64,000 bases of DNA from Octopus vulgaris (taxonomy: Eukaryota). Of this stretch, positions 21,195 through 63,315 are shown piece after piece. The position numbers were made by a program. The stretch lies in NCBI GenBank assembly GCA_951406725.2, contig OX597817.1, forward strand, positions 39,928,001 through 39,992,000, written 5' to 3'. Numbering within the stretch: position 1 is the stretch's first letter; each line of letters opens with the position of its first letter.

Positions 21195-21599
21195 CATATA
21201 TATTAAATGATATGAGTATGGGGGTTTACATTCAGGACTTAAAGTCTCTGTGTGAACAATTCAAGGAACATTGCACATCTTTAGCTGGTGCAAGTATGGT
21301 ACATGTACTACCAGTGATTACAAAACACAAATAATAAAAACAGGTACCACTGGTGAGCAGTAAAAAAGACCCCTTGGACATTAGTTACTCTTTTACTTGT
21401 TTCAGTCATTTGACTGCGGCCATGCAGGAGCACCACCTTTAGTCGACAAATCAACCCCTAGTACTTATTCTATCGGTCTCTTTTGCTGAACTACTAAGTT
21501 ACGGGGAACGTAAACACACCACCATTGGTTGTCAAGCAATGTTGGGGGGGACAAACACAGACACACAAACATATACATACACATACATACATACATACA

Positions 21600-21667
<68 letters not shown>

Positions 21668-21846
21668 TACGATGGGATTCTTTCAGTTTCTGTCTATACC
21701 AAATCCACTCACAAAGCTTTAGTAGAAGACACTTGCCCAAGGTGCCATGCAGTGAGAATGAGCCTGGAACCATGTGGTTGGTAAGCAAGCATCTTACCAC
21801 ACAGCCACTCTTGCACGTATAGTTAGATCATTCAACAGAAACAACT

Positions 21847-21893
<47 letters not shown>

Positions 21894-23273
21894 ACTGGCA
21901 TGGGTGCAAGTATGCTGGTGGAATGTAAAAAGCACCCCTTGAACTTTGGGCCTCATGGAGGCAGTGACAGATGACTGAGACCTTTGGCAATATGCCAAGC
22001 TTGAGAAGACCTGTCAAGCCAAGTGAGATCATAGTTGTGGCTGATGCTGGTGTTTTGTAACTGGCATGTAAAAAGCACCCACTACACTCTTAGAGTGGTT
22101 GGCGTTAGGAAGGGCATCTGGCTGTAGAAACATGCCAGATCAGATTGGAGCCTAGTGCTCCTCCCCGGCTTACCAGCTTTTAGTCAAACCATCAGAATGG
22201 AAAACAGACATTAAATGATGATGATGATATATATACATGCATGTGTGTATGTGTGTGCATGCACACACATACACACACAAACACACATGCGCGCGCGCAC
22301 ACACACACACACACACGCGTATATACATACATACTAGTTGAAGTAGCTGCTCTTCAATCTTACAATATATTTGATTCTACACTCTGCATTGATTCACCCC
22401 ATTTGTAGATGTTCTGTTGTTATTCTAAAACTCACTTGAAAATAATAATCTAAATTTAACATTTACGTCTAAACATACATATATATGTATTATGTGTGTG
22501 TGTGTGTGTGTGTGTGTGTATGGCATTTCTTTAAATGCTATGCTCTCTGTCCTTCATAAGTATTGATATTTGCATCAAGATGTCTTGAATTGTGTCTGGA
22601 AATCTCTCCTATTAATAGCATATATCATCTGAACAGTTTTCCGCTTGTACATACTCTTATACATAATGACAATTATCATTACATTTTTTTTTAAACACAT
22701 AATACCTTAATTAATAAGTAATTACCACGAGATATAATTATGAGGTTAGAGTTGGCCATTGCTGAAATTATGTCTTCCTAGTAAGCATCAGAGAAACAAT
22801 TGCTTCAACACTATTGTTTATGCTTGATGTATGATGTGTTGGATATATTTGGTGAAACCGCATCAAAAAGTAATGTTAAACCAAAACCAAGTTAGCAGTA
22901 AATAAAATTGCTAACACATTTGCAATTCCTCATTTTCAGTCATTTCACATTATTTGTCTTATTAATTTGCTTTGGAAAGACATTAACGTAACAAATTCTC
23001 GTTTATCCTTTCATAATGTTACCTCATGTCGACATATCTGGTTGTGGTATAAATAGCTGAGAGACCGGTGAGTGTGCATGATGTATATATGTGAACGTGT
23101 TTATTTATGCGTTGTATATGATGTGTGTCGCTGAACATGCAGGATTGTGTGTATGTATGTAAACAAAGTGTGTATGAATATGAGCATAGTTGTATATATG
23201 TATATATAGCCATATTTGTATAACTGATACTAGGCATGTATATATGTGAACTGGTATGTGTATGTTTGTATAC

Positions 23274-59735: not shown

Positions 59736-59772
<37 letters not shown>

Positions 59773-60365
59773 GTGTATATATGTATATGTATATATGTAT
59801 ATACATATATATATGTGTATATGTATATATGTATATACATATATATATGTGTATATGTATATATGTATATGTATGTATGTATATACATATATATATACAT
59901 GAATGTATATATATATATGTATGTATGTATATATATATACATATATACATGTATGTGTATATGTATATATGTATATATACACATATATGTATATATATAT
60001 ATATGTATATACATATATATACATGAATGTATATATATATGTATATGTGTGTGTGTCTTTGTCATAACATTATATAATTGTTGTAAATGAATGACATTCA
60101 TTTCCAATATTGTGAAGATGTGTCCAGCTATGGGGAAATATTACTTTGTTTAGAAACAGGTAAGAGTTGGTGACAGGAAAGGCATCCAACTCTTTTCAAA
60201 AGTCAAGACTATTGCAAACTTTTCAATAGTCAAGACTACTGAAAATGTTGCAAGACGCAATGAAAATTTTAGGAAAATAAAAATAAGAAATAAGTGGAAA
60301 TGTTACCAGTGAGTGTGTTACATTATAAGGCACAAAAAGAAAATGACTCTCTCCGGACACAACAG

Positions 60366-60420
<55 letters not shown>

Positions 60421-63315
60421 GCATGAGGAATAGAAAAAGGAAGTAGGAAACCATAAAATAGCTCCATGCAATCTTTAAAGATTTAAAGCTGTCTAGAAAA
60501 GAACCAGGAAGAAGGAAGTTTAGTTGTTTTGTTATAATGTTGATGAGAGACAAGAATTATAAAACAAGTGTGTCACAACAAATCTGGATGTCCTTGGGTT
60601 GAAATGAGTCTCAAGGGATTTTGGGTGCATTTTCACACCTGTCGGTGTAGATAACAAAATAAAAAAAACATGACCAGCCTGTGTTTTTAGGGGTATCTAC
60701 ATTATTCAAATTATCCTTCCTGTTTTTAAGGTGATAGAATATGATTTGAAGGGGATTTAACTGTTATTCCAGACAGCATTACTTAGTATCTCCTAGTTTT
60801 TAAAGACTGTAGATTGTAATTTTAAAGACTCACCTGCTGTTTCTAGCAGATCAAGAAACCATATTGAAGTTCTCTCATTCATTGCATTGTATACTGTCGT
60901 TCTTGTTGTTGTGTAACCCCAAGTCAACCATGAGCAAGCAGATCTCTGATCAAATGTCATTCCAGCCTTGATTATCCCTATACTTTTATCAGATTACATT
61001 ATTCTATGTATCCTTCTTTTCTTAACACTTAGATTGTGGTTTAAGCTAGATTTGACTGCTGTTTCTAATATGCTGAACTCTACGTAGAGACTTGCCCACC
61101 GACGCAGTGATTGTATTGTGGTGGTGGTGGTGGTGGCAGTTTTGTTTTTGTTTTATTTAAATGACCAAAGTCTATTTACTATCTTTCCAAAAGTTCAGAA
61201 CTAAAGGTGGGTCATCAATGTTGATGTCAACACTTGTATATAACTTTCTAACAATGTATATCTACTCTGAAGTGTATGTATGTATGTGTGTGTGTGTGTG
61301 TGTGTGTGCATGCACGCACACAGACATACATGTATATGCATTTGTATGTGTATTCAAAATTTGTTTGACATTATGAATGTGTTAGAGAAGGAGAAAAGTG
61401 TGGTGGGGAGTAGTGAGAGGAGGAAGCCGGTATTAGAGAACGATGTTGTTAAAAGGTCGTTAAGTTATTGTTCATTAATTTATTTGTCACATTCTGGCCA
61501 CCTTCGTAAATCTTGATGGGGATTGTGCAGAGTTGTACAGGTAAGAGGAAACACCCACGCTATGGATATGCCTCTGGGCAACCCCCGAAGAAGAGGAGAC
61601 TGAAGAGGAAAGTAAGTGGGATATTAGTGTATATTAATTATAACATCATTAATGTAATCATGTGGTGAATAATTACATTTCTCTTTCTCAGTCTGTTTGT
61701 GTTTGTGTGTGTGTGTGTGTATGTGTGTGTGCGAGAGAGAGAGAGAGAAGATAGATAGTTTAGTGGTTAAGGTATTGGGCTCATAATCAGAAGGTTGTGT
61801 GTTCAGTTCCTGAGCCAGGCAGCTCATTGTATCCTTGAGCAAGTTACTTCAGTCAGTTTCACTGAGTATGAGAACCAGCCTAGTGCTTGTGCATCCCTCT
61901 TTCCTTCCAGCTATTACATGAATAAGTATCAGGCTTAAAAAGCAACCCAAGTACTGGGGTTGATTCGTTTTGACTAAAGTTCCTCAAAGCAGTGCCCCAG
62001 CATGGCCACGATGTAATGACTGAAACAAATAAAAGATAAACGAGAAAGATATATATCCACATACACGTACACAGGGTATCTGCTGTAAATTAGAGTTGCA
62101 ATTTGAAAAATTCAGAAAAAAACTGAAAAGTAAAGAGAACTTAGCAGAGTCTATTGGCAAACTCATAAAGTTTTAATAGAAACATCAGAACACTTCCACA
62201 TGGGTTCTGTTGATTTCCATGCAGCACCTGTGGATGATACAATACAATAAATTGTGGAAGATGTTATATTAGAAGACACTTACCCAATGTGCCACATACT
62301 GTGACTGAACCTGTATCCATTTGGTTGTGAAGCAAATTTCTTACCACAAAGCCATGCCTGCACCTATAAACATATTTATATATGTATGCATGTATGTATG
62401 CATATATGTAGTTCAAATTTACAGAAAACAAAAAGCAAAGACAGGTGATGGAACAATGAGCAGGTGTATTATAGTTTGACGCTCAGGAGGAATGGAAAAG
62501 TCTTTGATGTTTTGAGCCTATGCTCTTCAGCAGAAAGGATTAAGAGGGAAAAAAATGGAGTGAATGAAAAAAAAGCGGAGAAAAAAACATGTAGGGTTTA
62601 ATGCTTCTACATGATGAAAATGAATATATGTATATTTGTGTAAGAATTAATGTGTATGAAGTAATGGTTCAACTTGATGAAAATGTATGAGTGTGTTCAA
62701 CAAATGATGAAAATGTGTGTGTGTGTCTGTGTGTCTGTGCTCTATGAAAGTCAATTACCAAAGCTGTTGTCACTTCTGTCAACTAATTATCCTCTGGCTT
62801 TTTGCCTTTAGAGACATGTGCAATTCTTACCTAAAAAAAATTAAAAAACAGTTAAAGATTAGTGATAGGAAGGGCATCCAACTGTAAAACAATGCTTCTG
62901 TAATATATTCATCCAACTCATGCTGGCATGGGAAAATGGTTGTAAAACCATACAAATGATTCGTGCGTGTTTAAATAACATTAATAATGAGGAGCACAAG
63001 TTCATTTTACTGATATGTTATGTTGTGACAAAAATTGATCCATAAATTGTAACTACATCAATACATTTAAATTTGTTTCAATCGTTTCAAATTAATAACA
63101 ATAATAGTAGCAACAGCAACAACAATAATAAATGACAGTAATAGTAACAACAACAACAATGAAACTGTGATCAACATACCATCAGTCATTATCTGTTCAA
63201 AGTACTGGTAACATTCCAAGAAAATCTAATAAGGCATAGCAAAGGTCACTTTGTCTCACATCTTCACTACCCATAAAATCTGCCTATCCTCTCTCTCTCT
63301 CCCTCCCTCCCCCCC

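What the first reader, a model, noticed from the sequence alone, without database searches (positions are those of the whole stretch)
21236..61617. Possible split-gene architecture: one long intron holds both an alternative last exon and an alternative first exon
Seen: exons E and F supply helix A and part of helix B of a spectrin repeat and then stop. I found no continuing spectrin exon in the remaining 42 kb. That interval holds a phase-0 stop-containing exon (39842-41695) and, further on, an ATG-initiated exon with a phase-0 donor (61516-61611). Established: nesprin/SYNE loci make KASH-less and N-terminally truncated isoforms through alternative termination and initiation. Inference: the locus could yield three products: a full-length giant protein, an N-terminal half ending in the LC8/coiled-coil tail, and a C-terminal half starting with a lipid-anchored basic peptide. 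If KASH lies downstream, the last could tether a membrane to the nuclear envelope.
Basis: inference. Interest (0 to 1): 0.8.

Follow-up and report, generated by a model that had tools for sequence, protein, structure and literature searches.

The report
Octopus nesprin's alternative LC8-motif tail exon
A giant octopus nesprin (Msp300) gene can end early in a long tail exon studded with docking motifs for the small dimer protein LC8; this is a familiar gene layout with an undescribed tail, and the proposed extra start exon has no support.

Summary
The window is part of an octopus nesprin/Msp300 gene. Five phase-0 rod exons (2169-14788) and the 1854-base stop-containing exon (39842-41695) map without gaps onto the last 949 residues of RefSeq XP_052822891.1, 'muscle-specific protein 300 kDa isoform X10' of Octopus bimaculoides (6850 aa). 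In that model exon E (ends 14788) is spliced directly to 39842.

The tail is a real, conserved mollusc module with no named family. It is mostly disordered and has five helices. Five TQT motifs are present against 0.25 expected, and six xQT sites are kept in 21-23 of 23 relatives (13 of 13 at the first).

Exon E ends in mid-repeat, which argues that longer isoforms continue beyond the window. I could not see them, so 'alternative' and 'KASH downstream' remain inference.

The ATG exon at 61516-61611 exists as described, but it is one of 11 such chance-type ORFs in the window. Its codon usage sits at the non-coding median, so it is unsupported.

Verdict: partly supported. It is a known kind of locus (CH+ KASH-less nesprin isoform) with a new tail variant.

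The parts
2169..2345 (+). Rod exon A of the nesprin/Msp300 gene (59 codons, phase 0-0)
   Evidence: tblastn of P0036 residues 5902-5967, 89% identity. AG/GT borders. 20.8-21.3 bits against the P0036 repeat profile.
4039..4200 (+). Rod exon B (54 codons, phase 0-0)
   Evidence: P0036 residues 5960-6015, 93% identity. AG/GT borders. 16.6-17.2 bits against the repeat profile.
5845..6015 (+). Rod exon C (57 codons, phase 0-0)
   Evidence: P0036 residues 6015-6073, 97% identity. AG/GT borders. Repeat profile only 1.9-2.8 bits, which is noise level.
6631..6807 (+). Rod exon D (59 codons, phase 0-0)
   Evidence: P0036 residues 6055-6132. AG/GT borders. Repeat profile 4.4-6.2 bits.
14486..14788 (+). 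Rod exon E (101 codons, phase 0-0). Its donor ACA|gtaagt is the branch point between the tail isoform and any longer isoforms. It ends in mid-repeat.
   Evidence: P0036 residues 6131-6232, 99% identity. Matches repeat-profile positions 66-100 and 20-56. AlphaFold model has two long helices, 2-30 and 33-100, mean pLDDT 82.7. Atlas leads point to Msp300 / PF25034 Spectrin_SYNE1.
21236..21298 (+). It begins 'DLKS' as exon E begins 'ILKS'. Not used in isoform X10.
   Evidence: Unique sequence. AG acceptor but weak donor gtacat. 3.0-3.4 bits, which is noise. Codon score reached by 15-17% of null windows. Absent from P0036.
14789..39841 (+). Intron of the tail isoform (25,053 bases), full of repeats and transposon relics
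   Evidence: Bounds. Contents.
39842..41695 (+). Terminal 'tail' exon: 617 codons plus TAA. It encodes a disordered S/T/N/Q-rich segment with 5 TQT and 2 SQT motifs, four internal helices and a C-terminal helix.
   Evidence: P0036 residues 6233-6850, 94% identity. Relatives, alignment A1, motif statistics, structure model.
41725..41730 (+). AATAAA polyadenylation-type signal 30 bases after the stop codon (a second one, ATTAAA, at 41797)
   Evidence: Such hexamers are common in this A+T-rich DNA.
61516..61611 (+). Unsupported as an exon.
   Evidence: present. (1 of 11 such ORFs). (codon score at the null median). (unique sequence). (not in the protein collection).

Best explanation
The interval lies inside the octopus orthologue of nesprin-1/Msp300. 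This is a giant protein with two N-terminal calponin-homology domains and about 50 helical rod repeats.

The donor of rod exon E (14788|14789) can be spliced across 25 kb to the acceptor at 39841|39842. That acceptor opens a 1.85-kb terminal exon carrying its own stop codon and an AATAAA signal. The product is a CH-positive, KASH-less isoform (6850 aa in O. bimaculoides, RefSeq isoform X10).

Exon E stops in the middle of a rod repeat. I therefore infer that other isoforms skip the tail exon and carry on to rod exons beyond the window. That would make this an alternative last exon (intronic polyadenylation type).

The tail is an intrinsically disordered segment with an array of TQT/xQT motifs conserved across molluscs. 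It also has four short internal helices, three of them amphipathic, and a confident C-terminal helix. I infer that LC8 (DYNLL) dimers bind the motif array and zip two tails together in register, helped by the terminal helix. This would dimerise or bundle the free end of the actin-binding rod in place of anchoring it in the nuclear envelope.

Shown: the exon structure, its match to the annotated isoform, motif enrichment and conservation, and predicted disorder. Inferred: use of the junction in this species, the existence of longer isoforms, and LC8 binding. The 61516 ORF is not part of this.
For: - P0036 = XP_052822891.1, 'muscle-specific protein 300 kDa isoform X10 [Octopus bimaculoides]', 6850 aa.
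- Its last 949 residues map in order and without gaps onto exons A-E and the tail exon. The E/tail boundary falls exactly at the predicted splice sites.
- All borders are AG/GT and all exon lengths are multiples of 3.
- The first 296 residues of P0036 hold 2 CH-domain stretches, E=7e-46.
- P0036 gives 55 hits to a repeat profile, spaced about 105-110 residues apart.
- Exon E ends at about position 61 of 109 in the repeat profile.
- A phase-0 acceptor sits at the same place in relatives. ORF-type predictions read through '...Q|TRKPCRSTQT', and the conserved RCxSTQT motif starts 4-5 residues into the exon, so an upstream coding exon is needed.
- The tail has 5 TQT against 0.25 expected; 1 of 100,000 shuffles reaches 5. 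xQT is kept in 13/13, 23/23, 22/23, 21/23, 22/23 and 22/23 sequences at six sites.
- All six sites lie in segments with pLDDT below 50 and no secondary structure. The C-terminal helix 578-616 has block-mean pLDDT 92-95 from about residue 590.
- LC8 motifs are 8-residue TQT-anchored strands in disordered regions (PMC6607443, passages read).
- Nesprin/Msp300 loci are known to give CH+KASH- isoforms through alternative polyadenylation sites (PMC8616381, passages read).
Against: - Isoform X10 is a computational RefSeq model of another species. I saw no transcript data.
- It is the only giant protein seen with the tail. All 16 of 16 hits in the representative search are 136-679 aa. No protein of 1081-3085 aa matched.
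- An older UniProt model of O. bimaculoides (P0028, 621 aa), and the Elysia and Candidula models (555 and 557 aa), treat the tail as a stand-alone gene.
- No longer isoform containing exons A-E was found among representatives of 3767-11988 aa. The existence of isoforms that skip the tail therefore rests on the mid-repeat argument and on the label 'X10'.
- No rod exon was detected in the 22 kb after the tail.
- A TQT anchor alone does not guarantee LC8 binding (PMC6607443).
Confidence: 0.65

Rival explanations
1. The tail exon belongs to an independent gene nested in, or lying after, the nesprin gene. That gene would have its own promoter and a short first exon somewhere in 14.8-39.8 kb. Isoform X10 would then be a chimeric read-through model.
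For: - P0028 (UniProt A0A0L8I860, 621 aa) is 'MWL' plus the tail exon.
- The Elysia (P0007) and Candidula (P0009) models are stand-alone proteins of 555 and 557 aa. They share a short N-terminal peptide ('..LL.T.W') ahead of RRRCRSTQT.
- All 16 of 16 representative hits are short.
Against: - The only 'ATGTGGTTG|GTAAG' in the window (21772-21785) lies inside an interspersed repeat with up to 8 overlapping copies. This makes the MWL start look like a predictor's stop-gap.
- Cluster 1 holds no separate RefSeq protein of about 620 aa, only X10.
- No ATG-initiated ORF of at least 30 codons with a strong donor lies on the + strand between 14789 and 39841.
- The E-to-tail join keeps the reading frame.
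Confidence: 0.15
2. The gene simply ends at 41695. The tail exon would be the constitutive last exon of this Msp300-like gene, with no downstream rod or KASH exons. Isoforms X1-X9 would differ elsewhere.
For: - No rod-like exon and no Pfam domain in 119 of 119 + strand open segments after the tail.
- No paralogous similarity to P0036 after 41.7 kb.
- No long isoform was retrieved.
Against: - Exon E stops in mid-repeat.
- Cluster 1 holds X10 as its only RefSeq member. Isoforms sharing the same tail would be expected to cluster with it at 90% identity (inference about the clustering).
- CpG depletion stays the same (observed/expected 0.25) for 22 kb past the stop, as in the gene body before it (weak evidence).
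- The scans that found nothing also miss 2 of the 5 known exons, and Pfam misses all of them.
Confidence: 0.12
3. One reading: besides the tail isoform, an internal promoter near 61.3-61.5 kb drives a first exon (61516-61611). This exon would encode a myristoylated, palmitoylated basic peptide and splice to downstream rod/KASH exons.
For: - The ORF is in unique sequence and has an in-frame stop 9 bases upstream, G at +4, a strong donor and phase 0.
- MGxxxSC fits the N-myristoylation pattern (recalled, not from a call).
- Nesprin loci use internal start exons (PMC3981789, abstract start in the search listing; PMC8616381 passages).
Against: - It is 1 of 11 ORFs of the same formal type in the window; the other 10 lie in repeats or on the other strand.
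- 40-42% of stop-free non-coding windows reach its codon-usage score, against 0-3% for the six known exons.
- No 400-base window overlapping it is among the 30 richest in CpG, and CpG observed/expected is 0.18 for 61516-64000.
- Position -3 is T.
- A 47-codon upstream ORF ends on the ATG.
- No exact copy in the protein collection.
Confidence: 0.07

Closest known systems
Drosophila Msp300 isoform B and mammalian CH+ KASH-less nesprin-1/2 isoforms
   Same: A giant CH-domain plus spectrin-repeat protein that ends before the KASH domain through an alternative termination site. Msp300 has 11 postulated isoforms from 4 start sites and 4 polyadenylation signals, and isoform B is CH+KASH- (PMC8616381, passages read).
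   Different: The octopus isoform ends in a 617-residue disordered tail with a conserved TQT array. The single-sequence search with that tail found no relative in an arthropod or a vertebrate. No paper in the library holds both Msp300 and LC8 (0 papers).
Multivalent LC8 (DYNLL) clients such as ASCIZ/ATMIN
   Same: Several TQT-anchored motifs strung along a disordered chain, next to a self-associating helix. [quoted passage not shown] The motif definition comes from PMC6607443.
   Different: No sequence relationship was found (Pfam, PDB profile and Atlas all negative). Here the array is the C-terminus of a 6,000-residue actin-binding rod. Binding is untested.
Alternative last exons made by intronic polyadenylation
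   Same: A stop-containing exon with its own poly(A) signal inside an intron of longer isoforms (PMC9341504 and PMC5928244, abstract starts in the listing).
   Different: Whether longer isoforms really skip this exon is inferred here, not shown.
Nesprin-1-alpha-2 type short isoforms from internal promoters
   Same: [quoted passage not shown]
   Different: The octopus candidate at 61516 has no support beyond its ORF and donor.

Membership tests
Nesprin-1/2 / Msp300 giant proteins | Paired N-terminal calponin-homology domains | tested here: met
   Not in the window. In the orthologous model P0036, residues 1-296 give Pfam CH at E=7e-46 with 2 stretches.
Nesprin-1/2 / Msp300 giant proteins | Long rod of spectrin-type repeats (about 106 residues, three helices) | tested here: inconclusive
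   For: 55 hits to a self-built repeat profile in P0036, about 105-110 residues apart. Window exons A, B and E match it at 21, 17 and 11 bits. The exon E model has two long helices. Atlas leads include PF25034 Spectrin_SYNE1 and PF00435. Against: Pfam gave no spectrin hit for 0 of 7 single-exon frames at E<=0.1. Foldseek gave only generic helical hairpins, 0 matches at E<=0.001.
Nesprin-1/2 / Msp300 giant proteins | C-terminal KASH domain | not testable with these tools
   Isoform X10 ends in the tail and has no KASH domain. Within the window, 0 of 119 + strand open segments after the tail hit any Pfam family at E<=0.01. Sequence beyond 64000 and the other isoforms could not be obtained.
Nesprin-1/2 / Msp300 giant proteins | Orthology to a named member | tested here: met
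   Exons are 89-99% identical to XP_052822891.1, named 'muscle-specific protein 300 kDa' by RefSeq (80.8% for exon D, whose aligned stretch includes non-exon flank). The name is the source's own and was not tested further.
Alternative last exon (CH+ KASH-less isoform) | Shares upstream exons with the giant gene, then a unique exon with a stop codon and poly(A) signal | tested here: met
   P0036 maps onto exons A-E and the tail with exact splice borders. TAA at 41693-41695 and AATAAA at 41725.
Alternative last exon (CH+ KASH-less isoform) | Longer isoforms that skip the exon | not testable with these tools
   Only indirect evidence: exon E ends in mid-repeat, the label 'isoform X10' implies others, and X10 is the only RefSeq member of its cluster. 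The search for longer proteins found none.
Multivalent LC8/DYNLL clients | Two or more TQT-anchored motifs | tested here: met
   5 TQT and 2 SQT motifs in 617 residues, 0.25 TQT expected, 1 of 100,000 shuffles reaches 5. 3 of the 5 TQT motifs have D at -4 (read).
Multivalent LC8/DYNLL clients | Motifs lie in an intrinsically disordered region and are conserved | tested here: met
   462 of 617 residues have pLDDT below 50. All six conserved xQT sites fall in such segments. Conservation is 13/13 and 21-23 of 23. Low pLDDT is only a proxy for disorder.
Multivalent LC8/DYNLL clients | Physical binding to LC8 | not testable with these tools
   No binding data. The anchor alone is not sufficient (PMC6607443).
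Internal-promoter first exon (nesprin-alpha type) | Coding signature and conservation of the unique first exon | tested here: not met
   40-42% of null windows reach its codon score. It is 1 of 11 chance-type ORFs. Cross-species conservation could not be tested.

The most novel reading that the evidence does not exclude
Molluscan nesprin/Msp300 genes carry a conserved alternative terminal exon that replaces the KASH anchor with a multivalent LC8 'zipper' plus a coiled-coil helix. This would turn a 6,000-residue actin-binding rod into an LC8-dimerised (or dynein-light-chain-linked) cytoplasmic cross-linker. Under this reading, the orphan 'hypothetical proteins' of about 500-680 residues annotated in gastropods and other molluscs are this exon mis-called as separate genes.
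Probability: 0.3. Interest if true: 0.55.

Novelty: new variant of a known kind. Interest (0 to 1): 0.4.

Why it matters
KASH-less nesprin isoforms are known in flies and mammals, but what their free ends do is poorly understood. A tail built as an LC8-binding array, conserved from octopus to gastropods, would give a concrete and testable mechanism: LC8-driven pairing of giant rods, or a link to dynein light chains. It would also explain a set of orphan mollusc proteins. It also shows that an ATG-plus-donor ORF alone is not evidence for an alternative first exon in this repeat-rich, A+T-rich genome.

Tried and rejected
- Pfam on single exon frames gave no spectrin hit. It also missed a mariner fragment that the PDB sequence search finds at E=2e-22. 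Pfam negatives here are therefore weak.
- The protein search with the tail among 1081-3085 aa found nothing.
- The search with P0036 residues 5903-6232 among 3767-11988 aa found nothing, so the other isoforms stayed out of reach.
- A relaxed tblastn of P0036 and a self-built repeat profile found no further rod exon. Known exons C and D score like noise (best minus-strand control 8.1 bits), so this cannot exclude one.
- I looked for the 'MWL' first exon of the old UniProt model. The only match lies in an interspersed repeat, so I rejected it as a real conserved start.
- The PDB profile search, Pfam and the Atlas gave no relative for the tail.
- Foldseek with the exon E model returned only generic helical hairpins.
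- Exact look-ups of three window ORFs (61516, F and E frames) found none in the collection.
- tRNA and Rfam scans found nothing.
- A CpG profile shows no island near 61.5 kb.
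Full report
**What the window is.**
- The 64 kb have 34% G+C, no N, and strong, even CpG depletion (observed/expected about 0.25).
- About a quarter of the window is repeated within itself.
- On the + strand there are five short exons with canonical AG/GT borders, all in phase 0 and all multiples of three. They are A 2169-2345, B 4039-4200, C 5845-6015, D 6631-6807 and E 14486-14788.
- I took no part of the window for human.

**The observation.**
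It has a good polypyrimidine acceptor, 617 codons and TAA, with AATAAA 30 bases later.
- The ORF at 61516-61611 is also there: ATG, 32 codons, donor AAA|gtaagt, and an in-frame stop 9 bases upstream.
- Exon F (21236-21298) has an AG acceptor but only a weak donor (gtacat) if it is to end in phase 0.

**What the tail exon belongs to.**
- A search of 1.84 billion representatives with the tail gave 16 hits at E<=0.001, all 136-679 aa.
- The named hits are hypothetical proteins of the gastropods Elysia chlorotica and Candidula unifasciata.
- A second search found UniProt A0A0L8I860 of Octopus bimaculoides (P0028, 621 aa, 94% identical), which is 'MWL' plus the exon.
- The decisive result came from listing that cluster. 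It also holds XP_052822891.1, 'muscle-specific protein 300 kDa isoform X10 [Octopus bimaculoides]', 6850 aa (P0036).
- The sequence of P0036 ends '...ELERIELEETPKAVEDKIT' followed directly by 'PTKRCDSTQTSEPS...'.
- tblastn places residues 5902-6232 on exons A-E (89-99% identity, 81% for D whose aligned stretch includes non-exon flank) and residues 6233-6850 on 39842-41692 (94%). The break falls exactly at the E donor and the tail acceptor.
- The first 296 residues of P0036 hold two CH-domain stretches (E=7e-46).
- P0036 contains 55 hits to a repeat profile about 105-110 residues apart.
- So the window is the 3' part of an octopus nesprin/Msp300 gene, from a species close to but not identical with O. 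bimaculoides. The join is E to tail, not F to tail.

**Is the exon alternative?**
- In a 109-position profile of P0036's own repeats, exon A covers positions 65-107 and exon B covers 14-63. Exon E covers 66-100 and then 20-56.
- The AlphaFold model of exon E alone has two long helices, 2-30 and 33-100, with mean pLDDT 82.7. This fits a helix C running into helix A of the next repeat. Foldseek returned only generic hairpins.
- An exon that ends in mid-repeat argues that other transcripts continue.
- Exon F begins 'DLKS...' where E begins 'ILKS...' and A begins 'NLME...', so it reads like the expected continuation.
- However, F scores only 3.0-3.4 bits, at noise level. 15-17% of non-coding windows reach its codon score.
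- I found no other rod exon between 21.3 and 64 kb by three routes. These were relaxed tblastn with P0036, the repeat profile over 2835 open segments, and Pfam on 119 + strand segments after the tail and 118 before it (0 and 2 weak sub-threshold hits).
- These scans are insensitive. Exons C and D score like noise, and the best minus-strand control reached 8.1 bits.
- CpG depletion does not change after the tail (0.25 against 0.24-0.27 before it). That is compatible with a continuing gene body but is weak evidence.
- I could not retrieve any longer isoform.
- The label 'X10', and the fact that X10 is the only RefSeq member of its 90% cluster, suggest that other isoforms lack the tail. That is inference.

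**The tail itself.**
- An alignment of 23 sequences shows the following conserved features:
  - an RCxSTQT motif 4-5 residues after the acceptor;
  - an acidic 'SESEESGYGET' block;
  - three 'LL+xIL.EVK' helices;
  - a 'VTQ.DLN.I..R..RL..Y' helix;
  - a proline-rich stretch;
  - a terminal 'DRYHLD.A...LK....KMK..L..E' helix.
- ORF-type predictions from other molluscs read through a CAG acceptor at the same point ('...Q|TRKPCRSTQT'). The intron is therefore old, and an upstream coding exon is required.
- The window's tail has 5 TQT motifs where 0.25 are expected; 1 of 100,000 shuffles reaches 5.
- xQT is kept at six sites in 13/13, 23/23, 22/23, 21/23, 22/23 and 22/23 sequences.
- The AlphaFold model built on this alignment has mean pLDDT 48.5, with 462 of 617 residues below 50.
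- Its five helices are 223-241, 263-278, 304-325, 418-432 and 578-616, the last with block-mean pLDDT 92-95 from about residue 590. All six motif sites lie in unstructured segments.
- This matches what is described for LC8 clients: an 8-residue, TQT-anchored strand in a disordered region, with the anchor necessary but not sufficient (PMC6607443, passages read).
- No known family matched the tail. Pfam gave 0 families for the window's tail and chance-level hits in 2 of 23 members. The PDB profile gave 0 hits, and the Atlas gave no usable hit.

**The 61516 ORF.**
- It lies in unique sequence.
- Its formal features are at chance level. The window holds 11 ORFs with ATG, at least 30 codons and a GTRAGT donor (4 on +, 7 on -). 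The other 10 are in repeats or on the other strand.
- In a codon-usage score trained on the known exons, each known exon (left out in turn) beats 97-100% of stop-free non-coding windows. The 61516 ORF is reached by 40-42% of them.
- There is no CpG enrichment.
- Position -3 is T, and a 47-codon upstream ORF ends on its ATG.
- The myristoylation pattern (MGxxxS) is recalled, not from a call, and is common after any Met-Gly.
- I rate this part at about 0.07.

**Rivals.**
- A nested independent gene (0.15) is suggested by the old UniProt model and the gastropod models. But the only ATGTGGTTG|GTAAG in the window lies in an interspersed repeat, and no separate RefSeq protein of about 620 aa sits in the cluster.
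- A gene that simply ends at 41695 (0.12) fits the empty downstream 22 kb, but not the mid-repeat end of exon E.

**Comparison with what is known.**
- Drosophila Msp300 has 11 postulated isoforms from 4 start sites and 4 polyadenylation signals, including a CH+KASH- isoform B. Mammalian nesprins have similar sets (PMC8616381, passages read).
- Short isoforms from internal promoters are documented (PMC3981789, abstract start in the search listing only). The layout is therefore a known kind.
- I found no report of an LC8-motif tail on a nesprin in four searches:
  - Msp300 plus LC8: 0 papers;
  - nesprin with LC8 or TQT: 58 papers hold two of the three terms, and none of the 15 listed mentions nesprin;
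  - nesprin plus DYNLL1: 11 papers, 10 listed, none on direct binding by title or abstract start;
  - nesprin plus octopus: 4 papers, none relevant.
- These are listings only. Subscription journals are not covered.

**Limits.**
- All searches and folds were done exon by exon. I left out the joined step (E+tail, E+F or 61516 plus anything), so no spliced model of my own was tested.
- The only spliced sequence used was the database protein P0036.
- No eukaryotic genome or transcript collection was available, so conservation of F and of the 61516 ORF stayed unchecked. So did the next window, the other RefSeq isoforms, and synteny in other molluscs.
- No supplementary files were consulted.

Noticed in passing
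window 20509-20805 (-): Fragment of a mariner transposase (C-terminal part), E=2e-22 to Mos1 transposase and 1e-20 to SETMAR. Pfam did not report it. It lies in the intron between exon E and the tail exon.
   Followed up: partly
window 54145-54426 (+) and 24441-24671 (-): Two related Tc1-type transposase fragments. They are 41% identical over 54 residues, and the first matches Sleeping Beauty transposase at E=7.6e-4. Both are relics inside the long introns.
   Followed up: partly
window 21443-21830 (+); copies at 10640-10980 (-), 55956-56258 (-) and shorter pieces elsewhere: An interspersed repeat with an internal microsatellite. The copy at 21.4-21.8 kb holds the window's only ATGTGGTTG|GTAAG. 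This would explain the 'MWL' start of the older O. bimaculoides model A0A0L8I860 as a predictor's choice inside a repeat.
   Followed up: yes
window 23001-23800: The only CpG-rich patch: 18 CpG in 400 bases, observed/expected about 1.0 against 0.25 elsewhere. It overlaps a 184-codon minus-strand ORF with repeat-like content. It could be a young repeat or an unmethylated island inside the intron.
   Followed up: no
window 21236-21338 (+): If exon F is not spliced at 21298, its frame runs on to TAA at 21332, which overlaps an AATAAA at 21333-21338. A second, very short alternative ending after exon E is conceivable.
   Followed up: no
window 61372-61518 (+): A 47-codon upstream ORF ends with TGA overlapping the ATG of the 61516 ORF (TGATG). 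(GT)n runs flank the region at 61.28-61.32 and 61.70-61.72 kb.
   Followed up: no
proteins P0007 (Elysia) and P0009 (Candidula), N-termini: The two gastropod gene models share a short peptide ('G.L....TW') just ahead of RRRCRSTQT. A conserved upstream coding exon therefore exists there too. Whether it belongs to a nesprin rod repeat is unknown.
   Followed up: no
window 11915-12286 (+): An open frame of 124 codons between exons D and E, with phase-0 splice-like sites. It is not used in isoform X10. It is probably not an exon.
   Followed up: partly
window 27343-27630 (+) and 20125-20316 (-): Sub-threshold Pfam hits: Bap31 at E=0.0024 and ORMDL at E=0.0037. Both are below the curated cut-offs and are expected by chance among 118 and 127 segments tested.
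   Followed up: no
window 36581-37325 (+): Two open frames whose wording recalls the C-terminal part of retrotransposon ORF2 proteins (from recall only). Pfam reported nothing.
   Followed up: no
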